Below are positions 38,471-57,453 of a DNA stretch of 64,000 nt, piece by piece. The position numbers and the translations under genes are program-made. The notes below the pieces were generated by a model that did no database searches, was not told where the DNA came from, and worked only from the letters and a program-made list of their open reading frames with translations. This DNA is from a virus, in the IMG/VR virus record IMGVR_UViG_3300034101_003424, positions 28,767 through 92,766 of that record; one strand, given 5' to 3'. Each line of letters opens with the position of its first letter. Position 1 is the stretch's first letter.

Positions 38471-38562
38471 AGTCAGGACAGGATTCGAACCTGTATGAGA
38501 GATAACCATTCCTTTATTCCCTCTATCTGTTAATTAGCGTCTACCAATTCCGCCACCTGACT
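38471..38562 (-). ncRNA. tRNA-like element 1 (Leu-type D/T scaffold, no canonical anticodon arm)
   Basis: AGTCAGG/CCTGACT acceptor, TGGCGGAATTGGTAGACGC, ACAGGTTCGAATCCTGT. Confidence 0.7.
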
Positions 38563-38626
38563 GTCTTTAGATTTTTAAAACCCACCTTTTACAAGGCAAG
38601 GAAACTCCATCTTATGTTTTTTGCGT

Positions 38627-38721
38627 GGCTAGGAAAGGATTCGAACCAATACGAATGAAGCGTAACCTATTTATCATTCTACCTTTATAACGATAGCGTC
38701 TACCAATTTCGCCACCTAGCT
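38627..38721 (-). ncRNA. tRNA-like element 2
   Basis: AGCTAGG/CCTAGCC, TGGCGAAATTGGTAGACGC, GGTTCGAATCC; aberrant middle. Confidence 0.65.
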
Positions 38722-38728
38722 ATGTTTT

Positions 38729-39115
38729 TTAAGATATTAATTTATGTATCGTTAATGTGTCTCTGCTTTCTTCTTTGCTAATTCCTATTAAATAGCTCTT
38801 AACATTGTTAACAATTGGTTTGTTATAAAATGTTTCAATGTAACGTAATGTTACTTTCTTTTTTTCGGATTGTTTTTGCGTTAAATCGATTTTAGCATTT
38901 TTGACATCACTAATTGCTAATAGTATTTGATTTTTATAACCTGAATTACCATCAATTAAATTTATAACTCGATTTGTTATAATACCATCAACAACTATTC
39001 TGATTTGATGTGATTTTTTACCTTTATGATATGTGATTTTATAATCGTCATAACCAATATGGTTGAAGCCGGTTTCAGTAGCTTCATATTTTGCAATTTT
39101 AAAAATATTTTCCAT
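38729..39115 (-). CDS. Hypothetical protein
   Basis: Start moved to MENIFK downstream of a TATATTTG promoter near 39146. Confidence 0.6.
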   Translation of the reverse strand: MENIFKIAKYEATETGFNHIGYDDYKITYHKGKKSHQIRIVVDGIITNRVINLIDGNSGYKNQILLAISDVKNAKIDLTQKQSEKKKVTLRYIETFYNKPIVNNVKSYLIGISKEESRDTLTIHKLIS

Positions 39116-39194
39116 ACTTTTGTTGTTTTTGTTGTTAACTATATTACAAATATAGAACAAAGTTTTTAGAATTCCAAATACATTTTTTGTTAGT

Positions 39195-39353
39195 AGCAAG
39201 GACAGGATTCGAACCTGTAAATCTTTTCTCGGATTGAAATCATCGCAATGAATTAATGCGTCTACCAAGTTTAAACATTGACCCCGTAGTGGATTCTAAC
39301 CACATTATTTTCACTACTGGAACGGGGTTGTTTAAACATTCCGCCACCTTGCT
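39195..39353 (-). ncRNA. tRNA-like element 3 with 69-nt D-loop insertion
   Basis: AGCAAGG/CCTTGCT, GGCGGAAT[insert]TGGTAGACGC, ACAGGTTCGAATCCTGT. Confidence 0.65.
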
Positions 39354-39502
39354 AAAATGAGTGTTTTTGTAATATCCCTAGAACACACAAACTATGCTGA
39401 CCTACGATTCAGAGAGCGTCCACGCCAATATTCGACTTGTAATCGAACACTTGTAATCTCTATCTTCGATCCATACCCAGGCCTAGGCAGAGGGCTTTTT
39501 GT

Positions 39503-39656
39503 AGTCAGGACAGGATTCGAACCTGCAATACTGCCGCACTTCTGCGCTGATACCTTTTTTATTTAACGTAAGGGTTGGCAAACCTCATTACAGTTTTTTA
39601 GTGTCTCCCATCAGGAATCGGCTTGATCAGTGCCGCCCTTGTTCCACCACCTGACT
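39503..39656 (-). ncRNA. tRNA-like element 4 (expanded)
   Basis: AGTCAGG/CCTGACT, GGTGGAA[insert]GGGAGACAC, GCAGGTTCGAATCCTGT; TATATTTG promoter immediately upstream. Confidence 0.6.
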
Positions 39657-39713
39657 AATTACAATGCAAATATAAGTATCTTTCTTAAAAAACCAACACT
39701 TATTTTGTTAATA

Positions 39714-40328
39714 CTATGTTAATTTATTTCTTAGCACTTGAATAACATCCCACGCATCCAATAAAGCATTATGAGAAACATTTCCATCAATATTAGCTCT
39801 CTTCTTACATACATCCAAAGAAGGCAGAGTATCATCATTATTCACATCAAAATATAAAATTGCGGGGTCTAATATCCTTTTACGAATATCAATAAATCCT
39901 AACCATCCAGGAACATTATTTAAGAATAACATGTCAAATGCAGCAAAATTCTTTCCAGCTACATTTATCTTATATCTCTGAAATCTAGAATCAGCTTTAA
40001 TTCCATTAGAATCTAGAAAAGATATAAAAGATGAAGTTAATGTAAAAGTTTCAACAAAGATAGGATTATAATTACCTACTTCATTATTTAACGCATCATT
40101 TCTGTCATTTTCTATATAATCTGAAATATCCTTAATAACATCCATATTCATCAATAATGCTTTAGGAGATCCTTTAATGTTTCTATGAATAACAGTAGCA
40201 TAGAACTTAGGACAATCTTCAAATGATAAAGATTTACTTGTATCTTCAATGATTGCTCCAAATGATAGGATTTGATTTTTCTTAGGATTCAAACCACTTG
40301 TTTCAATATCAATACTAACATACAACAT
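39714..40328 (-). CDS. DEDDh 3'-5' exonuclease
   Basis: IDIETSGL, N...FD, HNALLDA. Confidence 0.85.
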   Translation of the reverse strand: MLYVSIDIETSGLNPKKNQILSFGAIIEDTSKSLSFEDCPKFYATVIHRNIKGSPKALLMNMDVIKDISDYIENDRNDALNNEVGNYNPIFVETFTLTSSFISFLDSNGIKADSRFQRYKINVAGKNFAAFDMLFLNNVPGWLGFIDIRKRILDPAILYFDVNNDDTLPSLDVCKKRANIDGNVSHNALLDAWDVIQVLRNKLT

Positions 40329-40338
40329 GATATAAGAT

Positions 40339-40599
40339 TTAAAGTGTACAAATGTGAGGGGCAATACTCGTGGGGGCTAACAATACATTATTATATTTAC
40401 ATGCTTGCCCAAATCCATTACCTCTAAAATCAATAAAAACATATCTCTCATTAAATGAAGTGATGGTACCATATTCATAAGGAACATTAATATTATTCCA
40501 TACTTCTTTATACATGACTTTTCTTCCAACGAGACTATCATCCATAGAATCCGGAAATACTCTTTTAGGCGTTAGCCCCTGATAATCAAAACTGTTCAT
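40339..40599 (-). CDS. Hypothetical protein
   Basis: 86-aa ORF coupled to upstream gene. Confidence 0.55.
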   Translation of the reverse strand: MNSFDYQGLTPKRVFPDSMDDSLVGRKVMYKEVWNNINVPYEYGTITSFNERYVFIDFRGNGFGQACKYNNVLLAPTSIAPHICTL

Positions 40600-41083: not shown

Positions 41084-41084
41084 T

Positions 41085-41357: not shown

Positions 41358-41383
41358 TTTATTTATTTTAATGGTGAAAAAAT

Positions 41384-41461
41384 AGTCAGGGCCGGACTCG
41401 AACCGGATAAGCAACCATTTTACTGGACTTGGAAACCATTCCTCATTATGCCCACCTGACT
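41384..41461 (-). ncRNA. tRNA-like element 5 (acceptor and T arm intact, D/anticodon region aberrant)
   Basis: AGTCAGG/CCTGACT, CCGGTTCGAGTCCGG. Confidence 0.6.
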
Positions 41462-41885: not shown

Positions 41886-42842
41886 TTAGTTTGCAGATTG
41901 CCAAGTATAATCTATGTCACCTGGTACATTATCAGGTCTATGCCATTTAGCACATTTTACAGCATCTTTAAATGTAGGACAAGTGTCAATTAAATATACT
42001 GATTTTGTGCTAGGACAAGTAAACTCAATCCATGCGTAAGGTTGATCCAACTCACCTTTGCTATTTTGTAAGAATGAGTATGTTTTATTTGTTTTATACA
42101 ATCTTATTATTTCCTCATACCCGTTCTTATGTACCACGGTTTGCTCATCTACAATAGATGCATCTAACATTTCCAGGACACCCTCATTTCCGTAATTTTC
42201 TTTAATTATGGTAATGATAGCAGCTTTAATATCTTCGTTATCTTGATTATGAAAAGCAATCTTAGCATTAATTAACGAGCTGCATTCTTCGAATAACTCT
42301 TTTTCCAAGAATCTACCATTAACATAGTGCTGCCCATATCCATCAGCAAATTCAATGGCAAATCCTGTAGTACAATGTAAGTCATTATTTTCGTTCCTAG
42401 ATATTTTTTTAGGATACTTAGACACGAGGCAAACTTTGTCCATTTGTATTTGAAGATAGGAGTTTTCAACACATTCTAGGACTAAGTTAAAATCATCTTT
42501 GTATTCATCAAGAATATCAAAATTATCCATAAAGAAACTGTAGAAAGATAGCCATGAAATATCATCAACATTGATATAGGATGAGAACGGCTCATATACT
42601 AGGTTATCTTTATTCCCCATCAATTCATTCACTTTAACTTGACATTGCATAGGACTGTCTAGCAAAAGTACTTCCGGCTCTTCCAATCCGCAAAACTTGT
42701 ATAGCCTTTTCATTGAAATCTCGGTTCTGTCTTTATCATGGTTATTATAAAACTCATAATTAAAAACTTTACTCAACCACTTTTCTCTGTGGGAATCCAA
42801 CTTTGCCTCTTGCTCTGGGGTCAAACTTTCTATTTTCTTCAT
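41886..42842 (-). CDS. DUF6745-like protein lacking the internal QV/QL repeat segment
   Basis: IESLTPEQEA...REKW...LY...GL..P....DSP; WLSFY.FF; LH...G.AIEF.DG...HY.NG; CPST..VY. Confidence 0.65.
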   Translation of the reverse strand: MKKIESLTPEQEAKLDSHREKWLSKVFNYEFYNNHDKDRTEISMKRLYKFCGLEEPEVLLLDSPMQCQVKVNELMGNKDNLVYEPFSSYINVDDISWLSFYSFFMDNFDILDEYKDDFNLVLECVENSYLQIQMDKVCLVSKYPKKISRNENNDLHCTTGFAIEFADGYGQHYVNGRFLEKELFEECSSLINAKIAFHNQDNEDIKAAIITIIKENYGNEGVLEMLDASIVDEQTVVHKNGYEEIIRLYKTNKTYSFLQNSKGELDQPYAWIEFTCPSTKSVYLIDTCPTFKDAVKCAKWHRPDNVPGDIDYTWQSAN

Positions 42843-42944: not shown

Positions 42945-43202
42945 TTAATGTTTAGTATTTTGCGGGGAATACATATTTAATAATCTAAAATTGATTTTTT
43001 TTACTTGACCCATTACTGGACGCCATACTTTAAATCTTATTTGATCCGTTATTTGTCTACTCACTAGATTTTCAACTTTTTTTATTACTTGACTTGATAT
43101 TTCATCTTTTTCATGATTCTCTTTTTCATAATCCCACAGTCCATATACAGTATGATTCCATATCTTGTCCTGTACTAAATTACTTATATTCTCCATAATC
43201 AC
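42945..43202 (-). CDS. Array mini-gene 21
   Basis: ORF track; QV/W-rich helix. Confidence 0.65.
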   Translation of the reverse strand: MIMENISNLVQDKIWNHTVYGLWDYEKENHEKDEISSQVIKKVENLVSRQITDQIRFKVWRPVMGQVKKINFRLLNMYSPQNTKH

Positions 43203-43405
43203 ATGTTTAAATTTACTTTATTATCCAATGCAATCCATGCTTGAACTCTTACTCCATTAAATATTTGCCCTCCCAATAAATCTTCAACATTATTACCTAC
43301 TTTATCAGTTATTTTCTGCTCTACTTGATTAGATAGATGATTCCATAACATAACCCTCATCTTATAATTTACATGATTTGATACTTTACTTCTTATATTC
43401 TTCAT
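43199..43405 (-). CDS. Array mini-gene 20
   Basis: ORF track; ATGA overlap. Confidence 0.7.
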   Translation of the reverse strand: MKNIRSKVSNHVNYKMRVMLWNHLSNQVEQKITDKVGNNVEDLLGGQIFNGVRVQAWIALDNKVNLNM

Positions 43406-43632
43406 AACCTAATATTTTGTTTTACTTGTTTCATTATATTTAGTTTTACTTGACTAGGAGAAACTACAGTATCCTCTACTTTAATTCTGGCTTCGCCCTT
43501 TATCATACTCTCTTTGTTAGCATATAATTGATGCCACATCTGAAAAGATATATCACTACGTACTTGCCTATATTTTTTTCCCTTTGATTTACCTCGCAAC
43601 ATATTTGATAACATACTCACTATATTTTTCAT
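43402..43632 (-). CDS. Array mini-gene 19
   Basis: ORF track; ends QVKQNIRL. Confidence 0.7.
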   Translation of the reverse strand: MKNIVSMLSNMLRGKSKGKKYRQVRSDISFQMWHQLYANKESMIKGEARIKVEDTVVSPSQVKLNIMKQVKQNIRL

Positions 43633-43799
43633 AATCTAATATTTTGTTTCATGATTATTGTCTGCATACGTAATCGCTGATCAAGAGGGATATATACTTG
43701 TTTATTTGTTCCGAAATTCGTATGTAAGGATATACGCTTAGTCCATACCAAATAATTAGTAGATATACATTCCCTCATTTTATCTTTAATATTTTTCAT
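43629..43799 (-). CDS. Array mini-gene 18 (56 aa)
   Basis: Read manually: MKNIKDKMRECIS...IMKQNIRL*. Confidence 0.7.
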   Translation of the reverse strand: MKNIKDKMRECISTNYLVWTKRISLHTNFGTNKQVYIPLDQRLRMQTIIMKQNIRL

Positions 43800-43981
43800 A
43801 ACCTAATATTTTGTTTTACTCTATTTTCTGTTTGGGTAAATATTGGATCATTCACTTTATTATCTGCTATAATCCAAACTTTATTACTCACATGCCAATT
43901 AAATCCTTTTCTAAATTTTAACATTGTCTGGACTAATTTATCATTCATCTGGCCCGCCATAACATTTTTAAGATTATTCAT
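43796..43981 (-). CDS. Array mini-gene 17
   Basis: ORF track; ends VKQNIRL. Confidence 0.7.
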   Translation of the reverse strand: MNNLKNVMAGQMNDKLVQTMLKFRKGFNWHVSNKVWIIADNKVNDPIFTQTENRVKQNIRL

Positions 43982-44174
43982 GATTATTTTTTTTTAAACG
44001 AATAAGTATTTGCTTGTTTACTTGAGAACCTGCTTGATTCCATAATTTTCTCATTCTCACTGTGCCACTCACATTTTCTTCAACTTTGTCCCGGACGCGA
44101 ACTCTTATTAGTCCCCATAAGCCATCAACTTTATCACTTATGCGTTTCCATACTTCATTTTCAACATTCTTCAT
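43974..44174 (-). CDS. Array mini-gene 16
   Basis: Start moved to MKNVENEV. Confidence 0.7.
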   Translation of the reverse strand: MKNVENEVWKRISDKVDGLWGLIRVRVRDKVEENVSGTVRMRKLWNQAGSQVNKQILIRLKKNNHE

Positions 44175-44389
44175 ATTTCTAAAATTTGTCTTATGCGTTC
44201 CCATTCTTGATCTAGTACTTTAGCTTCTAATTCATCTCCTACTCCATTTCCAATTCGATCCCATATTTGCTTATCTCCCTTGTTCCATATTTTTTTTCTT
44301 AATTTAGTTACTACTTGTTCACTTAGTTGATTAATCAAAAGCGTCCTTACTTGATACATCTTTTCGTTGATTTGATTTTTAGTTTTCAT
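44171..44389 (-). CDS. Array mini-gene 15
   Basis: ORF track. Confidence 0.7.
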   Translation of the reverse strand: MKTKNQINEKMYQVRTLLINQLSEQVVTKLRKKIWNKGDKQIWDRIGNGVGDELEAKVLDQEWERIRQILEI

Positions 44390-44393
44390 AACT

Positions 44394-44585
44394 TCATGTT
44401 TTGTTTACTTGTTCATACAACCTATCCCGAACTTGTCTATATGCCCAACTACTTGTTCTGGAATTTGTTTTAGTCCTCACATCACTCCTCACTTTTCTGA
44501 AAACTAGATTTACCAATACAGCACCTGATGGATTCGATAGCCTATCTCTTATTCCACTCGCTATACTATTATTCACATTGTTCAT
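44394..44585 (-). CDS. Array mini-gene 14 (1-nt deletion in tail)
   Basis: Start MNNVNN; ends QVNKT instead of QVKQNMKL. Confidence 0.65.
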   Translation of the reverse strand: MNNVNNSIASGIRDRLSNPSGAVLVNLVFRKVRSDVRTKTNSRTSSWAYRQVRDRLYEQVNKT

Positions 44586-44758
44586 AATTTGATATTTTGT
44601 TTTACCGGCTGCCATACTATATAACGTGCTCTATTTTTTACTTGATTCCGGACTTCATTATGAACTTGCCTAGATGTTAATAGCCATAATTCATTAAGCA
44701 GTTGAGTACCTCCCTGCTGCCATATTTTAGCTTTAATTTTATCCTTTACATTCTTCAT
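44582..44758 (-). CDS. Array mini-gene 13 (58 aa)
   Basis: Read manually: MKNVKDKIKAKIW...WQPVKQNIKL*. Confidence 0.7.
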   Translation of the reverse strand: MKNVKDKIKAKIWQQGGTQLLNELWLLTSRQVHNEVRNQVKNRARYIVWQPVKQNIKL

Positions 44759-44931
44759 AACTTTATATTTCGTATTACTTGACTAACTAATCCCTCCTTA
44801 ATTTCAATATGCATAAAAACACTTATTTGATTCCACACTTTAAATCTTACTGGGCTACTAACTTTATTACTCATTGGAGACATTAATTGATTTCTTATTT
44901 GTTCACTTACTTCATTTTCAACATTCTTCAT
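44755..44931 (-). CDS. Array mini-gene 12
   Basis: Start moved to MKNVENEV. Confidence 0.7.
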   Translation of the reverse strand: MKNVENEVSEQIRNQLMSPMSNKVSSPVRFKVWNQISVFMHIEIKEGLVSQVIRNIKL

Positions 44932-45137
44932 AACTTTATTTTTTGTGCTACATGATACCATACCTGTCTCCTTACTTGATCCGCCAATTTATTAGTAGTT
45001 AATTCAACCATTTGATTAGTTACTTTACCGGATACTTTCATTTCTATTTTATGCTCTACCATATTTCGGGTGTGCACTCTTAAATTCATCCATAATTTAT
45101 CACATGAAGATGCTGTTTGTTTCTGTACCTTTTTCAT
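44928..45137 (-). CDS. Array mini-gene 11
   Basis: ORF track. Confidence 0.7.
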   Translation of the reverse strand: MKKVQKQTASSCDKLWMNLRVHTRNMVEHKIEMKVSGKVTNQMVELTTNKLADQVRRQVWYHVAQKIKL

Positions 45138-45322
45138 AACTTCTTATTTTGTTTTAATTGAGCCCATACTTGCAAACATACCTGATCTCTGGGTTTCACC
45201 CACACTTGACTGTCTATTCTAGCTTCTACCTGGTCATTTACTTGACTCTTTGTTAAAATCCGTAGTAGATTTCTTAATCCAATATTCATTTTATAAGTTA
45301 TAGTATCATTTACAGTCTTCAT
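45134..45322 (-). CDS. Array mini-gene 10
   Basis: ORF track. Confidence 0.7.
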   Translation of the reverse strand: MKTVNDTITYKMNIGLRNLLRILTKSQVNDQVEARIDSQVWVKPRDQVCLQVWAQLKQNKKL

Positions 45323-45513
45323 AACTTCATGTTTTCTTTTACGTGAAAAGCTATTTGATTTGTTATTTCAGTTGTTGCTTGATATCTTAATTGAATTAGA
45401 TCCTTGATTAAATACCATACCTGAGTATTAATTTTATTACCTAGTTTTATTCTTAATTCACTTCTCAATTCACCACTTATTTTTTGGTATACTTGTTTCT
45501 TTACATTTATCAT
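45319..45513 (-). CDS. Array mini-gene 9
   Basis: ORF track. Confidence 0.7.
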   Translation of the reverse strand: MINVKKQVYQKISGELRSELRIKLGNKINTQVWYLIKDLIQLRYQATTEITNQIAFHVKENMKL

Positions 45514-45710
45514 AACTTCTTATTTTGTTTTACTTGAATACATAGTTGATCTTTCATTTGATCACTTATCTGTTCAATTACCGGATTTCTTACTACATTC
45601 CATACTCGATCTATTACGGAACTACTTGATAAATCCCATACTTTATTTCTTCCCGGATTAAGTACTTTACCTCTTACTTGATCCCATACCTTTCTTCTTT
45701 CACTTCTCAT
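45510..45710 (-). CDS. Array mini-gene 8
   Basis: Start moved to MRSERRKVWDQV. Confidence 0.7.
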   Translation of the reverse strand: MRSERRKVWDQVRGKVLNPGRNKVWDLSSSSVIDRVWNVVRNPVIEQISDQMKDQLCIQVKQNKKL

Positions 45711-45904
45711 ACTTTTCTTATTGGCCATGATGCGTCTATGTTTTCCTGCACATCAATATATAATGAATCAAATATCTGTCCTCTTATTCTACTCCCTATT
45801 TTATCTTCTACCAAGTCCCTTACTTGATTACCTATAGTACTCCATACTGGACTTTTTACTATAATTCTTATTTCACTACTTACTTCATTTCGCACATTCT
45901 TCAT
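45707..45904 (-). CDS. Array mini-gene 7
   Basis: Start moved to MKNVRNEV. Confidence 0.7.
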   Translation of the reverse strand: MKNVRNEVSSEIRIIVKSPVWSTIGNQVRDLVEDKIGSRIRGQIFDSLYIDVQENIDASWPIRKV

Positions 45905-46065
45905 AACTTTATGTTTTCTTTTACTTGCTCCCACAATTGATTACTTACTTTATTACGTACTTGATTACGTACTTGATGATTTACTTCATGTCGTACGTTA
46001 TCCTCTACTCCATACCATACTTTATCACATACTTTATCACTTATTTTTTCACTTACATCCTTCAT
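45901..46065 (-). CDS. Array mini-gene 6 (54 aa)
   Basis: Start moved to MKDVSEKISDKV. Confidence 0.75.
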   Translation of the reverse strand: MKDVSEKISDKVCDKVWYGVEDNVRHEVNHQVRNQVRNKVSNQLWEQVKENIKL

Positions 46066-46226
46066 AACTTTATGTTTTCTTTTACTTGCTCCCATAATAG
46101 AATACGTACTTTATTTTTTACTTGACTCTGTACTTCCTTCGATACTTGGTTCCATACATCTTTCCATACTTTACTACTTATTTTACCACCTATTTTATCA
46201 CTTATTTTTTCACTTACATCCTTCAT
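46062..46226 (-). CDS. Array mini-gene 5 (54 aa)
   Basis: Read manually: MKDVSEKISDKIGG...LWEQVKENIKL*. Confidence 0.75.
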   Translation of the reverse strand: MKDVSEKISDKIGGKISSKVWKDVWNQVSKEVQSQVKNKVRILLWEQVKENIKL

Positions 46227-48178: not shown

Positions 48179-48192
48179 CTCACATGCAACCA

Positions 48193-48836: not shown

Positions 48837-48845
48837 GTTAATTTA

Positions 48846-49479: not shown

Positions 49480-49620
49480 TTTAATATGCTGCAAAGATAA
49501 TACATTCTTTTGATATATGCAAGCCCCGGCGAATATTTTTTTGCATATTTTTTTTGGGCTCTAATCCAAATGCGTTCCTTAATTTTCCGCGGGGCCATTT
49601 TTTCAGGCCCGGCGAACAAT

Positions 49621-50031
49621 TTATGCCGGTAGGGTTAATATACCTTTACATGATTTATAATATTTTCCCCTTTCAGAATCTATTTTTATCTCATAATTTA
49701 TCTGATCTATGAATTCTTTCATTTTTGGAACTTTTACATTTTCAGATACTTTTACCATGTAATCTAAAAATACTTTTGTATCTTCTTCCGTTTTCAATAA
49801 GAATGCTTGCATGTTCTTTTCATCATCTTCAAACAAGGGAAAGAAGAATACATTTGTATCATCTTCCGGATCCTCTATGAGTAGATAAGCAGTACATAAA
49901 TAATTGGAATCTGGAAATGTTTTAATAGATGTAATGACGTTATTGAATATTTCCATCTTATTATCTATGGACTCCCCTAATGATAATGAGTCTAATGATA
50001 TGAGATCCGTTGTATTTAATTTTTTAGACAT
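49621..50031 (-). CDS. Hypothetical protein
   Basis: 136-aa ORF. Confidence 0.6.
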   Translation of the reverse strand: MSKKLNTTDLISLDSLSLGESIDNKMEIFNNVITSIKTFPDSNYLCTAYLLIEDPEDDTNVFFFPLFEDDEKNMQAFLLKTEEDTKVFLDYMVKVSENVKVPKMKEFIDQINYEIKIDSERGKYYKSCKGILTLPA

Positions 50032-50045
50032 GTGTTGAAATGTTT

Positions 50046-50393
50046 TTAATTGGTTAATAAAAAGAACTTCACCGCCGAAAGTAAATCCGGGTAGGTCTTG
50101 TAGGTACCACCGTCAAATGTGTACCGTCTCTTCTTCGAGTTGTAGATTACTTCCCGTTCTTCCCCCCGGAACGACACGACCCTGTTGTTCCTTTGCGGTG
50201 CCACGAACATTAGCATGGTGTTGATGCCGTCTATTACATCTGTACTCCGGTCAACTATAACGTACTCGAACTCATCTTGATCAGGCAACAGGTTTTCAAA
50301 CAGAACAGTATTGTTTATCACGCAACTAATTTGTCTTTGACCATAAGATGAAAACACTCCTAAGAGTAAAAAGGTTGAAAGAATTAATCTCAT
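50046..50393 (-). CDS. Secreted hypothetical protein
   Basis: Bacteroidetes-style signal peptide (...SSYG-Q). Confidence 0.6.
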   Translation of the reverse strand: MRLILSTFLLLGVFSSYGQRQISCVINNTVLFENLLPDQDEFEYVIVDRSTDVIDGINTMLMFVAPQRNNRVVSFRGEEREVIYNSKKRRYTFDGGTYKTYPDLLSAVKFFLLTN

Positions 50394-50411
50394 ATAATTG
50401 ATTTGTTTGTT

Positions 50412-50568
50412 TTAAAAAGGAAGGTAGGTTAACCGGGGAGGTTAGGGCCCACCTTCTAAAATGCACCACTTAAACTTTGTTCTTTGTTCATAGCTTAATA
50501 AAAAGGAAGAAGGGATAATCGAGGAGACCAGAGCCCATCTTCTATATATACCACTTAAACTTTGCTCT
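50412..50568 (-). ncRNA. Two tandem candidate small RNAs (GTTTAAGTGGT + hairpin + U-run)
   Basis: Two imperfect ~75-bp copies in non-coding DNA; seed is the reverse complement of the early-leader box. Confidence 0.45.
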
Positions 50569-51585
50569 TTACACACCGGTCTGTTCCATTATCTTCCGGT
50601 GCGTTATATTGTCTATAGAATCATACCATTGTAAAAACCGTTTGATCCCTTCTCTATATTTCACTTTAGGTTCGTAGCCTAGACTTTTCAGCGGGGCTAC
50701 ATCAGATGCAGTAAAGTATACATCTCCATCCTGCATCCGTTCTAAATTCCGCAGGGCTCCAATACCAATCTCCTCCTCCAGGACATCAATGAAATCTAAT
50801 ATCTTAATGCTCTCATTGCTACCAACATTATATAACATGTACTTGACATCCGTTTCATTTTTAATCACAATATTAATCCCATCAATAATATCATCAATGT
50901 AAGTAAATTCTCTAAACATCTCTCCATGATTATAAATGTTAATGGGAATGTTATTATGAATGTTATATGTAAATTTATAAACCATCATATCCGGTCTACC
51001 CCATGGACCATACACTGTAAAGAATCTAAGCCCTGTAGTACGCATGTTGAACAAATGACTATATACATGTGCCGTCAATTCATTCATCTTCTTAGTCGCT
51101 GCATAAAAGGATACCGGCCCATCCGTTCTATCATCTGTACTAAATGCCATATCCATGTTATCCCCCATTCCATATACACTTGAACTAGATGCATACACTA
51201 AATGCTTTACATCATATTTCTTACATGCTTCTATAATGTTTAAGAATCCCTGAACGTTTGATCGGGCAAATAGATCCGGATCTTTGACGCTGGCTCTAAC
51301 TCCTGCCTGGCCCGCGAGATTTACAACTAGGTCAAACTTATGCAGAGAGAAAATGATATCTACCTTCTTCTTATCTGCTATGTCTAAGTTGTAGTAGCCA
51401 ATGTCTAAGTTGTAGTAGCCAATGCCTTTAGATATCGGCAGGGTATTAAATCTCATGCTATTTAATAACTGGGTGTCGCTTCCATCAAAGAAGTCCACAC
51501 CTATCACTTTGTGGCATTGGGTTAACATAGAGTGTGCTAGATGACTGCCAATGAATCCTGCGACCCCTGTTATTAGTACTTTCAT
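50569..51585 (-). CDS. NAD-dependent epimerase (UDP-glucuronate 4-epimerase-like)
   Basis: GVAGFIG, LAGQAGVR, ASSSSVYG, YAATKK, RFFTVYGPWGRPDM. Confidence 0.9.
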   Translation of the reverse strand: MKVLITGVAGFIGSHLAHSMLTQCHKVIGVDFFDGSDTQLLNSMRFNTLPISKGIGYYNLDIGYYNLDIADKKKVDIIFSLHKFDLVVNLAGQAGVRASVKDPDLFARSNVQGFLNIIEACKKYDVKHLVYASSSSVYGMGDNMDMAFSTDDRTDGPVSFYAATKKMNELTAHVYSHLFNMRTTGLRFFTVYGPWGRPDMMVYKFTYNIHNNIPINIYNHGEMFREFTYIDDIIDGINIVIKNETDVKYMLYNVGSNESIKILDFIDVLEEEIGIGALRNLERMQDGDVYFTASDVAPLKSLGYEPKVKYREGIKRFLQWYDSIDNITHRKIMEQTGV

Positions 51586-51586
51586 G

Positions 51587-51769
51587 TTAGTTATTATCTT
51601 TAAGAAACTTATACAATTCAAAGAACAGCAGGGAAGCCTCCTCCCGGGTTAGTACCATCTTTCCTTTCTGGTTAATGTAAGAGTGCACTACAAGAACCTT
51701 CTCATCAATGCCGGATCCTTCATGCACAGATACAACGGCCTGTTCGGTAAATTTTGTTTCGTAACTCAT
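51587..51769 (-). CDS. Hypothetical protein
   Basis: 60-aa ORF in operon. Confidence 0.5.
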   Translation of the reverse strand: MSYETKFTEQAVVSVHEGSGIDEKVLVVHSYINQKGKMVLTREEASLLFFELYKFLKDNN

Positions 51770-51784
51770 GTTATTTTTTTGTGG

Positions 51785-52057
51785 TCAGGACAGGAATGGT
51801 TTATACACTATGTCTCCCTTGTCTTCTATAGAGAGCATTACATACACATCATCCTCACACCATGAAGCCCAACCATCGAACCAATCGTCCTTTGTGTAGT
51901 TAGTCCACTTAGCAGATCTATCTCTATTTATTTCATTTAAGACATCTTCTATACCCCATGTCAATTCTTCATTACTGTAACCATCCAAGACAACGAATAC
52001 AAAATCATTGACATTTCTGCCTGGTAAGAAGTCATCTACATACTTGAATATTGCCAT
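51785..52057 (-). CDS. Hypothetical protein
   Basis: EINRDRS..W..Y...DW..GW motif. Confidence 0.6.
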   Translation of the reverse strand: MAIFKYVDDFLPGRNVNDFVFVVLDGYSNEELTWGIEDVLNEINRDRSAKWTNYTKDDWFDGWASWCEDDVYVMLSIEDKGDIVYKPFLS

Positions 52058-52091
52058 TTCTTTTTTAGTTTTTTGCGGTGTTTAACAATTA

Positions 52092-52715
52092 TTATTTTTT
52101 ACAAGAAGTTAGAATTTCATGGCACAACTCTTCTGGAATTCTACTTCTTTCATAAGAACCTTTCCTTCCTTGAGTTCCCGTCTTTGAACCTCTAGGAGCA
52201 GGAGTATGGTGACAGTTCTTATTACCATTTTTACATATTGGTCTAGGAACCCAATCTTCGGAGTTAGTCCATATATCTGTAGGCTTCGCTCTGTCGTCTC
52301 CGTACTGGCAATACCATACTGTATGTCTTTTAAATCCTTGCATCCATGGCATCTTTCTTAACATGCCTCTTGGATTCTCTATGAAGAAAACCATGTTAGG
52401 ATTAATCTCTAACCATTCTTTTATCAATGATATGAAATGTTGGTTAGTGATGTCACACTCACCTGCATACTTACTCTTCGGATCTACGCCATTTCTGTGA
52501 GTAGATATAGCAGCGATAGTATAGGTTGTACAATCCGGGGATGCCCAAATAATATCCGGAACAAACGGAACATCTTCTTTCTTTAGTTTTGAAATGTCTA
52601 TCTGCAAATCAATGCCATCAAAGTTTTCCCAATCAACAGAGAATACGTTCATGTCTAACTGAGCAGCAGCTTTGCCAATAGACTTACTGCCTGCGAATAA
52701 TTCTAATACGTTCAT
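52092..52715 (-). CDS. DNA cytosine-C5 methyltransferase-like protein
   Basis: LELFAG, WASPDC, IENP, YCQYG...KPTDIW, R..IP..L. Confidence 0.75.
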   Translation of the reverse strand: MNVLELFAGSKSIGKAAAQLDMNVFSVDWENFDGIDLQIDISKLKKEDVPFVPDIIWASPDCTTYTIAAISTHRNGVDPKSKYAGECDITNQHFISLIKEWLEINPNMVFFIENPRGMLRKMPWMQGFKRHTVWYCQYGDDRAKPTDIWTNSEDWVPRPICKNGNKNCHHTPAPRGSKTGTQGRKGSYERSRIPEELCHEILTSCKK

Positions 52716-52793
52716 TTTTTTTAGTTTAGTGGTAAAGAATATAGTGCAAAGATAAGGGGAATATTTAACATACCCAAACATTCCCCTAATTAT

Positions 52794-53189
52794 TTATTTA
52801 AAAAAATTAACCCATTCAAATATAGCGGTACACATTCCTATTGTATCCTTAGGTCTTGATATATACCACTCAAGTTTGTCATCATGTAACCAAGCATGGT
52901 AATACTCTAGTGATTTATCCGAAGACTTTCTGTGAATCATTTCCAAGTGATGCTCAAATCGGAAAAACTTTTTAGCAATCAATCCTTCTGTTTTGCTAAT
53001 GACTTCTACTAAGTACCCGTTGAAATGGTCTCTTGTTCCTCGGTCTTCCAAAGTTATTCTAACTACCTTATCATAGAAACTATTTTGAGCATAGATATTG
53101 AAGACTCCCTCTATATCGAACCATTCTATTCTACTGAATTCTGAACCCTTGAAAAATTCCTCATTAAATTTTTTGAAATACGTTTTCAT
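52794..53189 (-). CDS. Hypothetical early protein
   Basis: Follows promoter cassette. Confidence 0.65.
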   Translation of the reverse strand: MKTYFKKFNEEFFKGSEFSRIEWFDIEGVFNIYAQNSFYDKVVRITLEDRGTRDHFNGYLVEVISKTEGLIAKKFFRFEHHLEMIHRKSSDKSLEYYHAWLHDDKLEWYISRPKDTIGMCTAIFEWVNFFK

Positions 53190-53274
53190 TTTTTTGTTTT
53201 AAAGTGGTGAATAATATAGTGCAAAGATAGGGGTACCGGATTGAATATGCAATACCCCTATCGTTAATGTTTTG

Positions 53275-53475
53275 TTAATTGTGATAAACGTTCGTTCCCC
53301 TCCTGGCTTCCTTGCTAATACTGTAAGAGCCGAAGTAATGCATCTTAGCCTTAGAGAGCAATCGTATGGCCTCTTTCTTGTTGTAAGCAGTAACACAAGC
53401 GGCACCGCAATAAAAGCCATTAGAATCAATCCTTGTGCCATTTAAGGTAGCTATCCATTCCTTACTATTTCTCAT
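53275..53475 (-). CDS. Hypothetical early protein
   Basis: 66-aa ORF ending at cassette edge. Confidence 0.5.
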   Translation of the reverse strand: MRNSKEWIATLNGTRIDSNGFYCGAACVTAYNKKEAIRLLSKAKMHYFGSYSISKEARRGTNVYHN

Positions 53476-53482
53476 ATTACTT

Positions 53483-53749
53483 TTAGTTGTTTAAATGATT
53501 ATTCCAAATTAGCATGTCCTCTCTCAAGACATTATCTTCACTCGTATCGAACTCCTGGAATCCAAAATCATAATTCAACTTATGATTATCACATATCTCT
53601 AAAGTGGAATTAATTTTATCTAACTCCCACATTTCAAAATACGTATCACATTCGATTTCGTCAGGAGCAGATGTATCGTCACACCTTAAAAAGTATCCTA
53701 ACTTTAAGTTTAACTCGGACTCTTTTTTTATTATGAATTCTTTTAACAT
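53483..53749 (-). CDS. Hypothetical early protein
   Basis: 88-aa ORF. Confidence 0.55.
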   Translation of the reverse strand: MLKEFIIKKESELNLKLGYFLRCDDTSAPDEIECDTYFEMWELDKINSTLEICDNHKLNYDFGFQEFDTSEDNVLREDMLIWNNHLNN

Positions 53750-53750
53750 G

Positions 53751-54044
53751 TTACTTTTTATAGTTGTTTAAAAATTCGGTGTACACATGGTCATACAATA
53801 CTTCATCGCAATCATCTAAAATATCCATGTCAACATTCTCTACAATCTTTAAAGTCAAAGCATCTAAGTCATCTATGATTGACTCAAATGAACCCATCAT
53901 GTGAGTAAATTCTAGTACAGATCTAGCATCACGTGTTCCAAGTTTTTCCGATGTCTCATCATCCTGGTTCATGATTTCATTACAGATGTTTGATACATGA
54001 TAGAAAACAATCTTGAATAAATAAGAACTTCTGTCAATGTTCAT
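53751..54044 (-). CDS. Hypothetical early protein
   Basis: 97-aa ORF with leader box. Confidence 0.6.
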   Translation of the reverse strand: MNIDRSSYLFKIVFYHVSNICNEIMNQDDETSEKLGTRDARSVLEFTHMMGSFESIIDDLDALTLKIVENVDMDILDDCDEVLYDHVYTEFLNNYKK

Positions 54045-54070
54045 TTTTTTTTAGTTTAATGGTGAAGAAT

Positions 54071-54313
54071 TTAAAACAATATTATTCGAGCATCGCGTTC
54101 GGTTACATGGCCTACTTCTATTCCGATTTCAAGACCTCTCTCTAATGCATCTATAAGGTCTTGATAAGATTCACAGACATCGGTCTCGCTATCGTCATCA
54201 TATAGCGCATAGATAGAACCATCGAATAGACCCGACTGGTAAACTTCTTTAGCTTTGTCAGTAATCAATAGCCATACAAAGCCTTCAACAACTTTAATTT
54301 TTTGGTCGTACAT
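54071..54313 (-). CDS. Hypothetical early protein
   Basis: Start moved to MYDQK after cassette. Confidence 0.6.
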   Translation of the reverse strand: MYDQKIKVVEGFVWLLITDKAKEVYQSGLFDGSIYALYDDDSETDVCESYQDLIDALERGLEIGIEVGHVTERDARIILF

Positions 54314-54398
54314 TTTTTTTAAGTTTAGTGGTAAAGAATATAGTGCAAAGATAAGGGGGATATTTGAGAAAACCAAATCCCCCTGTGTTAATGATTCC

Positions 54399-54638
54399 TT
54401 AATTTTCTACTTCATAGAAGATTGTCTCATCTGGAAAGTACCACTCAATTGCATCAGTAATTGCTAACGAGATTTGTTCCATGGTTGCTGCATTGGTAAG
54501 AGCCGTATTTAAAATCTTTTGAGCATCTTCATCGCTAGCCTTCATGTAGTTAGCTTGAACATCCTGGATATGCCATAGGTTGTCAACAAAGTAACCATGG
54601 TCTCTTAATACCTTTTTTGCATTTTCTACTGCGTCCAT
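54399..54638 (-). CDS. Hypothetical early protein
   Basis: GYFVDNLW...DV motif; follows cassette. Confidence 0.65.
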   Translation of the reverse strand: MDAVENAKKVLRDHGYFVDNLWHIQDVQANYMKASDEDAQKILNTALTNAATMEQISLAITDAIEWYFPDETIFYEVEN

Positions 54639-54732
54639 TTTTTTTTTAGTTTAGTGGTAAAGAATATAGTGCAAAGATAAGGGTACCGGATCTAATATGC
54701 AATACCCCTATCGTTAATGTTTTGTTAATTTT

Positions 54733-54921
54733 TTACTCTTCGTGGATTGCCCTATAGATAGCTCTGCCGTCAAGAATTCGAGTCTTTGGTTTGAGGCCAT
54801 CATAGATTTCCCAGGCTTTAGCGAGAGAATTTGCGGTGCCAACTATTTGCTCACCCTTAAAGATGATATACTTCTCATCCTTCATTGGATCAGGTCTTTT
54901 TACTTCAGTTGCTTTGTTCAT
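54733..54921 (-). CDS. Hypothetical early protein
   Basis: Follows cassette. Confidence 0.6.
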   Translation of the reverse strand: MNKATEVKRPDPMKDEKYIIFKGEQIVGTANSLAKAWEIYDGLKPKTRILDGRAIYRAIHEE

Positions 54922-55007
54922 TTTTTAGTTTTAAAGCGGTGATTAATTATAGTGCAAAGATAAGGGTATTGGATATACTATGCAATACCCTTATCGTTAA
55001 TGTTATG

Positions 55008-55496
55008 TTAAAATGGTAAGTTAGTATTTAGAATGTTAAGACCCTCTTCTCTCTTCTGCTTGCATAAGTTTCTTAAGTATTTAGAACCTTGCTCAGTCTT
55101 TAACAAATCTTCTATTTTGGTACGCTTGCCGTTTACAATTACTTCAAACACCTTGTAGAAATTTTCTGTGCCAACACATACTCCTTTACTAAAATCCTTT
55201 TCTATCTTTTTCCAATTTTGTTTTTTTAACCAAGACTCAAATAGTTCGTCCACTACATTTTCTAAACTAGGACTACCTATATAATTTTCATTGTCAGGCA
55301 GAGTTTTACAATAATCCTCCATTTTGTCGTACAACTTTCCATGACCCGAACAATAACAGTCGGTATTTCCTCCATGTCCATCATTCCTACAGTACCCTAC
55401 TTTCTTTCCATCAAAGAAAATATCCGCTTCAAAGCAATTAGTCTCTTGTGAATTCCACTCAGAGAATTTAATACTCTTTAATTGAATCCTATCCAT
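55008..55496 (-). CDS. Hypothetical early protein
   Basis: SQETNCFEA...NDGHGG motif; follows cassette. Confidence 0.7.
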   Translation of the reverse strand: MDRIQLKSIKFSEWNSQETNCFEADIFFDGKKVGYCRNDGHGGNTDCYCSGHGKLYDKMEDYCKTLPDNENYIGSPSLENVVDELFESWLKKQNWKKIEKDFSKGVCVGTENFYKVFEVIVNGKRTKIEDLLKTEQGSKYLRNLCKQKREEGLNILNTNLPF

Positions 55497-55587
55497 TTTT
55501 TTTTAGTTTATTGGTGAATAATATAATGCAAAGATAAGGGTATCGGATATACTATGCAATACCCTTATCGTTAATGTTATGTTAAAA

Positions 55588-56298
55588 TTACAAAGACCAT
55601 TGACTTGCCATAGCTTTAGCCATGCCTATGAATGTCTTACTTCTCATAGTTCTTCTTTCTTCCGATGACTTAGCATTTGAAAGAGCATCAGCATACCACT
55701 TAGGATGACTTTTACCGCTTTTGAAATACACTCTCTCACCCTCGCTTACTATATCTGTAGGCTCTAATTTAGGTAGATTTTTTAGCCACAAACAAGTTGT
55801 CTTTCTTGCCTCGTCGCCAAACATAAACGGTTGCACAATTTGGTCAGGTTTTCTGTAAGCAGATGATATGACACCAACAGGGTTTTCAATTGCAATCTTA
55901 TCAATAGGCGCATTAGCTATCCTTATGAAAAACTCAATAGCCTTTTCTCTATCTGCTGCTCTATCCGGATGTTTAGGATGTGGTCTTCTAGATTCAACCG
56001 GTAAGTCCTTATCTTCCGGATGGTAGTACCATTGCGCACCACTCACGGCCAAATAAGTACAAGGCGGATGTGCAATCATCATATCCCAATCTGCATTTAT
56101 ATTAACCGTTTCTCCATTTTGAAGAACACCGCCTTGATTCTTGATAATCTCAAAAACGTCATTGTTAAAATGCCATTCGGGATGTCCCCCACTACAAGGA
56201 AGAAGGTCGCAGCTAAATGCATTGTGTCCTAATAATCTCAATTCTCTAGTTAAAGCTTGGCTCTCTTCACAAGCTACTAACACATTTAATTTTTTCAT
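55588..56298 (-). CDS. DNA cytosine methyltransferase-like protein
   Basis: VLVACEES, SCDL, AHPPCT, IENP, QPFMFG, RSKTF.G.A.AMA.QW. Confidence 0.75.
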   Translation of the reverse strand: MKKLNVLVACEESQALTRELRLLGHNAFSCDLLPCSGGHPEWHFNNDVFEIIKNQGGVLQNGETVNINADWDMMIAHPPCTYLAVSGAQWYYHPEDKDLPVESRRPHPKHPDRAADREKAIEFFIRIANAPIDKIAIENPVGVISSAYRKPDQIVQPFMFGDEARKTTCLWLKNLPKLEPTDIVSEGERVYFKSGKSHPKWYADALSNAKSSEERRTMRSKTFIGMAKAMASQWSL

Positions 56299-56382
56299 TT
56301 TTTAGTTTATGTGGTAAATAATATAGTGCAAAGATAAGGGGGATATTTGAGAAAGTCAATACCCCCCTATGTTAATGATTCC

Positions 56383-56952
56383 TTAATTTTCCGCGGGGTT
56401 ATTCTCTCTATATATCCTAATCATTTCTTCCATATCTTCCTCAGTAACGTAGGGATAATCCTCCTTAATCTGCTCCTCACTTTCAATAAATCCATCTTCA
56501 ACATTCGTAATAAAATCATAGAAGAAATTCTCAGGGACTTCTTTATACTGGTATTCATTATAAGTCATATCCTCCCTACTTACTTCATCACCATTTACAT
56601 CAATCTCCACAATACCTGCAAAGTCACACCCCCCTTCCGAATATTCAATCCGTCCTTCCACTCCGTACTTCTTACATACTTTCTTAACAAATTCCGTACA
56701 TGGACTCCAAGCCGTTTCACAATTAAGGTAATCACATTCTTTCATGCTATGTCTAATGTCATCGTCCATCAGTACACTCCATTTAGTGCCGAACTCATCA
56801 CACCAATCATTGTAATCATATTCTTCTTTATAATCAGTCAATGCAGTAAATATACAATGACCGTCCTCAATACTGGCAACATCTTTTCTCAATGTTTCCA
56901 TAGCTTTTTCCGTACCTTCAAATGAGATACAATTAGAACACCAATTTGGCAT
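56383..56952 (-). CDS. YubB/DUF1281-like ferredoxin-fold protein
   Basis: MPNWC.N, W....GTKW, TAWSP, Y.E.G.DFAG. Confidence 0.7.
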   Translation of the reverse strand: MPNWCSNCISFEGTEKAMETLRKDVASIEDGHCIFTALTDYKEEYDYNDWCDEFGTKWSVLMDDDIRHSMKECDYLNCETAWSPCTEFVKKVCKKYGVEGRIEYSEGGCDFAGIVEIDVNGDEVSREDMTYNEYQYKEVPENFFYDFITNVEDGFIESEEQIKEDYPYVTEEDMEEMIRIYRENNPAEN

Positions 56953-57237
56953 AGTAGTTAAAATTTAATGTGGTTAATAATATGTCGCAAAGATAATAAC
57001 ATTCCATCTAATATCCTAATCCTAAAATGTTAAAGTCATGTTAAAATGAAATGTAGTAAAATGTAACTCATACCATATCTCATCTATTCCCCATCATCTA
57101 ATTGACATTGCAAAGATACATCCCATTTCTCTATTATCCTAATTTCAAATGTTAAAAAGATCTTAAAGAAATGTTAAAGTCATGTTAACGGATCCCCCTC
57201 ACATTACTGGCCATGCTAGAAAAGGGAAGCGGGAAAA

Positions 57238-57272
57238 TTTACTCAGGCAAGGCTTTGCCTTGCCTGAGTAAA
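57238..57272. repeat. GC-rich palindrome (copies also at 60161-60200, 61961-62000, 63791-63828)
   Basis: tttactcaggcaaggc-ttt-gccttgcctgagtaaa. Confidence 0.85.
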
Positions 57273-57283
57273 ATTCACTAGCA

Positions 57284-57343
57284 ACAAAAAAACTCCCGAC
57301 ATCTACTGCCGGGAGCTAAACCACTTAAACATCTATTAACCTT
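57284..57343 (-). ncRNA. Candidate 3'-trailer small RNA (GTTTAAGTGGT + terminator)
   Basis: Seed at 57320-57330, then CTCCCGGCA/TGTCGGGAG hairpin and T7. Confidence 0.45.
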
Positions 57344-57453
57344 TGGAAGTCAGGGTAGGAATCGAACCTACATGATAAGTAGTATAGTTGATTAAGCGAA
57401 AACGTACTTACTTATCTATTCACTTCTAGCGTCTACCATTTCGCCACCTGACT
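57344..57453 (-). ncRNA. tRNA-like element 6 with encoded CCA
   Basis: AGTCAGG/CCTGACT-T-CCA, TGGCGAAATGGTAGACGC, GTAGGTTCGATTCCTAC; long stem replaces the anticodon arm. Confidence 0.7.

What the first reader, a model, noticed from the sequence alone, without database searches (positions are those of the whole stretch)
38471..57453. Family of six anticodon-less tRNA-shaped RNAs with covarying acceptor and T stems
Seen: elements at 38471, 38627, 39195, 39503, 41384 and 57344 keep a 7-bp acceptor stem (AGTCAGG/CCTGACT, AGCAAGG/CCTTGCT, AGCTAGG/CCTAGCC) and a GGTTCGA.TCC T arm with compensatory changes (ACAGG/CCTGT, GTAGG/CCTAC, CCGG/CCGG). Most keep a Leu-type D arm. The anticodon/variable region is unrelated between copies, total length varies from 78 to 159 nt, and I find no 5-bp stem with 7-nt loop at the canonical position. 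One has its own promoter and one encodes CCA. Inference: the elbow and acceptor are under selection while decoding is lost. They may be tRNA mimics (decoys for tRNA-targeting defences or synthetases) or RNase P/Z processing signals that cut transcripts and release cargo RNAs.
Basis: partly seen in the sequence, partly recalled or inferred. Interest (0 to 1): 0.8.

Follow-up and report, generated by a model that had tools for sequence, protein, structure and literature searches.

The report
Phage tRNA-shaped RNAs without anticodons
A lake-water phage carries six small RNA genes that keep the ends, elbow and leucine-type D arm of a tRNA but hold conserved, class-specific folded inserts instead of an anticodon arm; the family is large, phage-borne, not found in the papers or RNA database I searched, and its job is unknown.

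Summary
Six minus-strand elements keep a 7-bp acceptor stem and a T arm. Five keep a tRNA-Leu D arm; in e3 and e4 it carries a hairpin inserted in the D loop. None has an anticodon arm: ARAGORN calls nothing, and Rfam tRNA passes threshold only for e1, by skipping the middle.

New here:
- The middles are not junk. e1, e5 and e6 each belong to a class found in many other phage contigs. Each class has its own helices with compensatory changes (96-100% of cells paired, against 28-52% in slid controls).
- The e1 body is identical under four fully compensated acceptor stems.
- The e3 D-loop module recurs with a different insert each time, and close relatives of this phage have the parts reshuffled.
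- The 3' trailer N73-C-(A/T)-A matches that of 254 ordinary tRNAs in the same phage loci.
- The retained parts (A73, D/T-loop contacts) are those E. coli LeuRS needs.

Best reading: stable, tRNA-processed, possibly leucylated non-decoding RNAs built as scaffold plus cargo, with parts exchanged by recombination. Function is unknown. No expression data could be obtained. This scan noted the same family before on other phage DNA; I found no paper or Rfam entry for it.

The parts
38470..38562 (-). e1: acceptor AGTCAGG, intact Leu D arm, 13-nt conserved single-stranded linker, 9-bp bulged hairpin with conserved 8-nt loop, T arm, A73
   Evidence: Class alignment A3: 10 sequences, 100% of cells paired, 9 pairs with changes on both sides. 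Nt 5-26 are 100% identical to E. coli tRNA-Leu.
38626..38721 (-). e2: acceptor AGCTAGG with an A1/C72 mismatch, intact Leu D arm, 5-bp stem closing a 22-nt purine-rich loop, T stem with two U/U oppositions
   Evidence: Homologues carry two other acceptor versions; all three versions have a 1:72 mismatch.
39194..39353 (-). e3: acceptor AGCAAGG, Leu D arm split by a D-loop module, 39-nt middle, T arm
39269..39337 (-). D-loop module of e3: palindromic closing stem, 7-bp acceptor-like stem and a T-arm-like hairpin (loop TTAGAAT)
   Evidence: Recurs at the same D-loop position in at least 10 other viral contigs, each time with a different downstream insert, and once free-standing in a tRNA array (L382). 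Compensatory changes in both stems were read by eye.
39502..39656 (-). e4: acceptor AGTCAGG, D arm GTGGAA...TGGGAGACAC split by a 31-nt hairpin insert (39611-39641), about 100-nt middle, T arm
   Evidence: In relatives L134 and L236 the insert's hairpin changes CGGC/GCCG to CAGC/GCTG and is joined to the e2-type middle.
39667..39674 (-). TATATTTG box (Bacteroidota -7 type) 10 nt upstream of e4; e3 follows e4 with no further box
   Evidence: The same box sits upstream of the corresponding element in L134.
41383..41461 (-). e5: acceptor and T arm, with no D arm and no anticodon arm. A helix P2 encloses two hairpins (hp1 with tandem G-A and a TGG loop; a small hp2).
   Evidence: Class alignment A1: 26 sequences, 95.9% of cells paired, 9 pairs and 53 cells with changes on both sides, slid controls 28-52%.
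57344..57453 (-). e6: acceptor AGTCAGG, Leu D arm, 12-nt linker, 11-bp bulged hairpin whose loop can pair with the linker (candidate pseudoknot), T arm GTAGG/CCTAC, T73 and an encoded CCA
   Evidence: Class alignment A2: 12 sequences, 99.2% of cells paired, 6 pairs with changes on both sides. The pseudoknot helix is 100% paired but shows only one one-sided change.

Best explanation
The six elements are genes for small, stable, non-decoding RNAs built on a tRNA-Leu frame: acceptor stem, Leu-type D arm, T arm, usually A73.

Inferred mechanism:
- They are transcribed with the early genes, and e4 has its own promoter.
- The host's tRNA maturation enzymes cut them out at the 5' end (RNase P) and trim the 3' end. 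The tail is then completed to CCA, as for the ordinary tRNAs of such phages.
- The L-shaped frame gives defined ends and stability.
- The working part is what replaces the anticodon arm, and sometimes a hairpin added in the D loop. Each of these inserts is a conserved class of its own.
- Because the frame keeps exactly what bacterial LeuRS needs, the RNAs may also be charged with leucine.
- Frame, D-loop module and insert are exchanged between phages by recombination within the constant D-arm and T-arm sequences.

What the inserts act on is unknown. The fast turnover and the neighbouring RNA-repair genes point to the contest between phage and host over tRNA and RNA.

Shown here: the structures, the conservation, the modular exchange and the shared 3' trailer. 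Inferred: transcription, processing, charging and role.
For: - tRNA frame: nt 5-26 of e1 are identical to E. coli tRNA-Leu. In 157 family members U8 is 95%, Y48 92%, A73 88%, and the T loop is TTCGAAT or a near variant.
- RNA-level selection: e1 class 100% of cells paired with 9 double-change pairs; e5 class 95.9% with 9 pairs and 53 cells; e6 class 99.2%. Slid controls give 28-52%. Many G-U pairs would be A/C mismatches on the other strand.
- Inserts are constrained: the e1 body is identical under four different acceptor stems. Between this phage and L134, the e2 middle is 97.6% identical, the e3 D-loop-module stretch 95% and the e5 insert 95% (whole e5 element 94%), against 83-84% for the flanking genes.
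- Modularity: L134 and L236 carry the same parts in other combinations. The D-loop module occurs with at least 10 different inserts.
- Same 3' route as real tRNAs: C74 is 97% and N75 mostly A/T in the family, and likewise in 254 ordinary tRNAs of the same loci.
- LeuRS: A73 and the D/T-loop tertiary pairs suffice; tRNA-Leu variants lacking both the anticodon arm and the variable arm are still charged (PMC9976931).
- Phage-borne: more than 120 viral loci hold the family, against 25 hits in 185,579 species genomes, nearly all on freshwater MAG contigs.
Against: - No expression, end-mapping or charging data. The one RNA library that held related contigs cannot show transcription.
- No target was found: the inserts have no antisense match to the phage's own genome above shuffles, and no protein is a shared neighbour (best cluster in 17 of 146 loci).
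- Window e2 has a weakened T stem and may be decaying.
- The class alignments were seeded with exact words, so conservation within the seed is by construction.
- High identity of the inserts could partly reflect recent transfer rather than constraint.
Confidence: 0.55

Rival explanations
1. Decoys or sponges. The RNAs act through the frame itself. They would soak up LeuRS, or a host toxin or nuclease that attacks tRNA bodies or acceptor ends, protecting host tRNAs during infection. The inserts would only tune folding or specificity.
For: - The frame keeps the LeuRS recognition set.
- A kinase, a metallophosphoesterase and an RNA ligase lie just downstream. This is the healing-and-sealing set that phages use against tRNA-cutting defences (PMC7824862).
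- The acceptor stem of the e1 class changes completely while the body stays fixed, as expected if something targets the stem.
Against: - A decoy does not need six different conserved inserts per genome.
- Without an anticodon loop these RNAs cannot mimic substrates of anticodon nucleases.
- Linkage to repair genes across loci is weak: a kinase homologue in 4 of 35 e5-class loci and 3 of 108 other loci.
Confidence: 0.2
2. Transcript punctuation. The elements are only RNase P/Z cleavage signals that separate early mRNAs, and the RNA released has no role of its own.
For: - e1, e2 and e5 lie inside operons directly upstream of genes, with no promoter box of their own.
- RNase P and the 3' enzymes need only the acceptor, T arm and elbow (established knowledge of tRNA processing, not tested here).
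Against: - Insert sequences and helices are conserved and covary across phages, and are more conserved than the neighbouring genes.
- e4 and e3 form a unit with its own promoter and no gene between them.
- The Leu-specific D arm and A73 are not needed for cutting.
Confidence: 0.12
3. Real decoding tRNAs with introns or unusual anticodon arms.
For: - 28% of family members elsewhere are callable as tRNAs, such as a 70-nt tRNA-Lys(UUU) on the same acceptor and T arm.
- The phage encodes the enzyme types of ligase-based tRNA splicing.
Against: - ARAGORN with introns allowed gives only low-grade models for these six: anticodon loops such as Tyr(ata) and Phe(aaa), one model spliced across e2 and e1, and intron sites outside the canonical position.
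- No single excision from the 19-nt loop of the one anticodon-stem-like helix I found in e1 leaves a U33 anticodon loop (read from the sequence).
- e5 has no arm at all in that place.
Confidence: 0.04
4. Decaying tRNA pseudogenes with no function.
For: Window e2 has mismatches in its acceptor and T stems and scores below the Rfam threshold.
Against: - Compensatory changes keep every helix in three classes.
- The same classes recur in many unrelated contigs.
- A promoter sits at e4.
- The 3' trailer is that of working tRNAs.
Confidence: 0.04

Closest known systems
Bacterial class II tRNA-Leu (Rfam RF00005)
   Same: 7-bp acceptor stem, D arm identical over 22 nt to E. coli tRNA-Leu, T arm, A73, Y48, and the same 3' trailer as neighbouring phage tRNAs.
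   Different: No anticodon arm. The place of the anticodon and variable arms is taken by class-specific folds, and some members carry hairpins inside the D loop. They cannot read codons.
Phage T4 species 1 RNA (rnaC), a stable RNA of the T4 tRNA cluster
   Same: Phage RNA of about 139 nt beside tRNA genes. It ends in a T arm (loop TTCGAAT) followed by a 7-nt strand that can pair in part with its 5' end, and has no anticodon arm. As far as I recall, its function is still unknown.
   Different: No Leu D arm, an imperfect acceptor (5 of 7 pairs), no sequence likeness, and a single copy. rnaD has no T loop.
Engineered tRNA scaffold for recombinant RNA (Ponchon-Dardel design; PMC3753655)
   Same: The same design idea: an RNA of interest placed where the anticodon part would be, so that the cell processes and protects it as a tRNA. 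I did not read the paper; this is from its abstract and from memory.
   Different: These are natural. The anticodon stem is often absent, the D loop is also used as an insertion site, and the frame is Leu-type.
Minimal tRNA-Leu substrates of E. coli LeuRS (Larkin et al. 2002, as reviewed in PMC9976931)
   Same: The same retained parts: acceptor with A73, plus D and T loops with their tertiary pairs. Those laboratory RNAs are still leucylated.
   Different: Those are laboratory constructs. Charging of the phage RNAs is untested, and their acceptor stem (A1-U72, U3-A70) differs from E. coli tRNA-Leu.
tmRNA and YrlA-type bacterial Y RNAs (tRNA mimics without an anticodon)
   Same: A tRNA-like acceptor/T-arm domain joined to a non-tRNA domain.
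   Different: No tmRNA call and no Rfam match to either family. There is no G3-U70. No Ro60/TROVE gene lies in the held half of the genome.

Membership tests
tRNA (RF00005) | Score at or above the Rfam gathering threshold | tested here: inconclusive
   e1 scores 38.5 bits (threshold 29) and e2 26.8. e3-e6 have no match even at E<=10.
tRNA (RF00005) | Anticodon arm: 5-bp stem with a 7-nt loop at positions 27-43 | tested here: not met
   Default ARAGORN finds 0 genes. cmscan skips 30 and 18 nt as inserts. The class structures show other folds there.
tRNA (RF00005) | Acceptor stem, T arm and D/T-loop elbow nucleotides | tested here: met
   e5 lacks a standard D arm but has a TGG hairpin loop in its place.
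Intron-bearing tRNA | Removing one segment leaves a canonical anticodon arm | tested here: not met
   ARAGORN -i at relaxed score gives only implausible models, including one spliced across two elements.
tmRNA | tRNA-Ala-like end with G3-U70, and a tag reading frame | tested here: not met
   ARAGORN -m finds none and Rfam has no match. Position 3:70 is U-A or C-G.
YrlA / Y RNA with Ro60 | Match to the Rfam model, and a Ro60 (TROVE) partner | tested here: not met
   No Rfam match. No TROVE hit in the contig. Caveat: the contig is about 51% of the genome, and the host was not searched.
LeuRS substrate (tRNA-Leu identity, E. coli rules) | A73, A14, A15-U48, G18G19, A20a, intact T loop | tested here: met
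   All are present in e1, e2, e3 and e4 by sequence. e6 has T73. e5 lacks the standard D loop. Family-wide, A73 is 88%. The rules are from PMC9976931.
LeuRS substrate (tRNA-Leu identity, E. coli rules) | Actually charged with leucine | not testable with these tools
   Needs an aminoacylation assay.
T4 rnaC-like stable RNA | Sequence or structure homology to rnaC | tested here: inconclusive
   They share only a T arm and the position among tRNA genes. No alignable sequence was seen by eye.

The most novel reading that the evidence does not exclude
Phages of freshwater bacteria run a combinatorial RNA toolkit of three parts: a leucine-tRNA frame, an optional D-loop module and an exchangeable insert. 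Its products are matured and charged like tRNAs but never decode. Each insert class would disable or redirect a different host factor, for example a defence that senses or cuts tRNA. That would make this an RNA counterpart of protein anti-defence gene cassettes.
Probability: 0.2. Interest if true: 0.9.

Novelty: new variant of a known kind. Interest (0 to 1): 0.68.

Why it matters
tRNA look-alikes without anticodons are known only as a few special cases: tmRNA, Y RNAs and the unexplained T4 species 1 RNA. Here the same idea appears as a large, modular gene family that standard tRNA finders and Rfam miss.

If the RNAs are made and charged as predicted:
- phages would have their own way of producing stable designer RNAs through the host's tRNA pathway;
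- the many insert classes would be a new pool of functional RNAs to assign to targets;
- there would be a natural precedent for the tRNA scaffold used in RNA engineering;
- it might finally give a handle on what T4's species 1 RNA does.

Tried and rejected
- Expression: the one RNA library with related contigs (X20) held relatives' contigs over some elements and genes at similar depth. Contigs cannot show transcription or ends.
- Close relatives in GenBank phages: none by megablast.
- Antisense targets: the longest complementary words between the inserts and the phage genome are no longer than for shuffled inserts.
- Common protein partner: all-against-all clustering of ORFs from 146 loci found no cluster in more than 17 loci. 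The named top clusters were terminase and DUF932; the rest had no Pfam match.
- Linkage of the e5 class to the RNA-repair genes is weak and probably reflects related phages.
- The spacer between e4 and e3 does not fold better than shuffles (z -0.10). Single-sequence folding of the elements gives only modest z-scores.
- Rfam at a loose threshold on eight related loci matched only tRNA-clan models to the elements themselves (tRNA, with weak tRNA-Sec hits). Beside them it found one near-threshold freshwater-1 RNA and a weak chance match to a plastid leader.
- E. coli L/F-transferase preferences (G3:C70, A4:U69, C72) do not fit this acceptor stem.
- My first impression of an invariant AGTCAGG acceptor was an artefact of a search word that contained it. 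In loci not chosen on the acceptor it is 23 of 40.
- The metagenome scan returned mostly an unrelated repeat from one sample.
Full report
**What the window is.**
- The window is the right-hand 64 kb of a 92.8-kb viral contig with 33% G+C, estimated to be about 51% of the genome.
- Nineteen lake or freshwater metagenome runs each hold at least half of the sampled words of the 3.3-kb stretch searched.
- The region around the finding is an early-type region of small minus-strand genes.
- Bacteroidota-type -7 boxes are frequent there. TATCTTTG occurs about 20 times between 49 and 64 kb, and TATATTTG occurs in the 31-43 kb part.
- A very close relative lies on a contig binned with a Saprospiraceae MAG.
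- A Bacteroidota host is therefore likely, but this is inferred.

**The observation.**
- The T-loop word occurs 9 times against 1.3 expected.
- Default ARAGORN calls no tRNA or tmRNA in the whole contig.
- Rfam tRNA reaches threshold only for e1 (38.5 bits), scores e2 at 26.8, and treats the middle of both as an insertion.
- ARAGORN with introns allowed and a relaxed score gives only implausible models, one of them spliced across two elements.
- Nucleotides 5-26 of e1 are 100% identical to E. coli tRNA-Leu genes.
- Two corrections. e3 and e4 also have Leu-type D arms, each interrupted between the AA and the GG of the D loop by a hairpin (69 nt and 31 nt). e2 has an A1/C72 mismatch and two U/U oppositions in its T stem.

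**The family.**
- A word from the T arm plus the 3' acceptor strand found more than 120 viral loci, many with 3-7 copies.
- 158 distinct members share acceptor, D arm and T arm, around middles of 20-130 nt.
- About 28% can be called as tRNAs, for example a 70-nt tRNA-Lys(UUU). The rest cannot.
- In other phages the elements sit among ordinary tRNAs that have ordinary, varied acceptor stems.
- Only 25 places in 185,579 species genomes hold the word, nearly all on freshwater MAG contigs.
- In lake metagenomes the frame sequence is 80-90 times deeper than the phage itself.
- The apparent invariance of AGTCAGG was partly my own ascertainment. In loci not chosen on the acceptor it is 23 of 40, while A73 is 36 of 40.

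**The middles are conserved classes, not filler.**

| Class | Alignment | Cells paired | Pairs changed on both sides | Slid controls |
|---|---|---|---|---|
| e5 | A1, 26 sequences | 95.9% | 9 (53 cells) | 28-52% |
| e1 | A3, 10 sequences | 100% | 9 | 35-45% |
| e6 | A2, 12 sequences | 99.2% | 6 | 32-51% |

- e5 class: a helix P2 encloses a hairpin with tandem G-A and a TGG loop, plus a small second hairpin, and there is no anticodon arm at all.
- e1 class: an invariant 13-nt linker is followed by a 9-bp bulged hairpin with a conserved 8-nt loop. The D arm, middle and T arm are identical under four fully compensated acceptor stems.
- e6 class: an invariant 12-nt linker is followed by an 11-bp bulged hairpin. 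A conserved loop word of that hairpin is complementary to the linker, so a pseudoknot is a candidate. It is consistent with the data but not proven, because one strand was fixed by my search word.
- e2 class: occurs with three acceptor versions, all with a 1:72 mismatch.
- e3 D-loop module: an acceptor-like stem plus a T-arm-like hairpin. It recurs at the same D-loop site in at least 10 contigs, each time with a different downstream insert, and once free-standing in a tRNA array.

**Modular exchange.**
- L134 and L236 share flanking genes at 83-86% identity, but their elements are recombined:
  - an e5-type element sits in the e4 position;
  - the e2 middle is joined to the e4 D-loop insert;
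  - the e3 D-loop module is joined to a new middle;
  - the e1 position holds another insert.
- Homologous inserts are 94-98% identical, more than the neighbouring coding DNA.
- I infer that the breakpoints lie in the constant D-arm and T-arm sequences. This also explains identical bodies under different acceptor stems.

**Processing and charging.**
- In 157 members, C74 is 97%, N75 is mostly A or T, and A76 is 70%.
- The same N73-C-(A/T)-A trailer holds for 254 ordinary tRNAs in the same loci. The elements are therefore probably finished by the same 3' pathway.
- The review PMC9976931 states that E. coli LeuRS needs A73, A15-U48, G18G19, A20a and the D/T-loop pairs, not the anticodon or the variable arm. 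It also states that variants lacking both arms are still charged.
- That set is exactly what the frame keeps. Charging is a prediction, not a result.

**Context.**
- Just downstream lie an AAA_33 kinase, a metallophosphoesterase, a DUF4326 gene and an RNA ligase. A DEDD (RNase T-type) exonuclease lies beside e4.
- This is the healing-and-sealing set that phages use against tRNA-cutting defences (PMC7824862).
- Linkage of these genes to the family across loci is weak.
- No Ro60 and no CCA-adding enzyme is present in the held half of the genome.

**Comparison with what is known.**
- T4 rnaC has a T arm and an imperfect acceptor around a non-tRNA middle, among tRNA genes. It is the nearest natural analogue, and its function is likewise unknown.
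- Rfam 15 has no family for these RNAs.
- Four full-text searches found no description of them. The 2023 catalogue of viral structured RNAs mentions only tRNA-overlapping candidates, and the 2026 tRNA-mimic preprint treats other folds.
- Earlier agents of this scan reported the same family on other phage DNA. I re-derived it independently and added three things: the class-level covariation, the acceptor-swap result and the shared-trailer result.

**Verdict.**
- These are real, structured, non-decoding tRNA-framed RNA genes. They are a new, large variant among tRNA mimics.
- The mechanism of maturation is well grounded by analogy.
- Cellular function is open.

Noticed in passing
window 33497-38208 (-): RNA healing-and-sealing set directly downstream of e1/e2: AAA_33 kinase (37807-38208), calcineurin-type phosphoesterase (36518-37249), DUF4326 (35787-36131) and an RNA ligase with a PHA02142 OB domain (33497-34636). 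Homologues at 44-62% identity lie near family members in several other loci.
   Followed up: partly
window 49000-64000 (-): The octamer TATCTTTG recurs about 20 times on the minus strand, apparently before small early genes. It fits the Bacteroidota -7 promoter box TAnnTTTG and suggests the host phylum.
   Followed up: partly
window 39714-40364 (-): DEDD exonuclease (Pfam RNase_T) next to the e4 promoter, conserved in relatives L134 and L236. It could trim RNA 3' ends, but PHROGs names it a DNA polymerase exonuclease subunit.
   Followed up: no
L026:4124-4186 (+): A near-threshold match to Rfam freshwater-1 RNA (70.1 bits, threshold 72) sits inside another phage's tRNA array that also holds five family members.
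   Followed up: no
L048:2637-2743 and about 570 nt further on: Two identical copies of an e6-class element lie within a direct repeat in a 128-kb viral contig. Its acceptor stem is AGTCTTG/CAGGACT.
   Followed up: no
several family members in L001-L145 (e.g. L056, L035, L103, L129, L130): At least 8 of 157 middles contain a second T-arm-like hairpin, and at least 6 have hairpins inserted in the D loop. tRNA parts are thus reused inside the inserts.
   Followed up: partly
L286-L380 (sample Ga0126335): About 70 metagenome contigs from one sample share an unrelated repeat that happens to contain the 17-nt search word. It is not a tRNA-like element.
   Followed up: no
window 43199-48200 (-): A run of some 25 tightly packed minus-strand ORFs of 48-80 aa with overlapping stop and start codons, upstream of a DUF6745 gene (41886-42842).
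   Followed up: no
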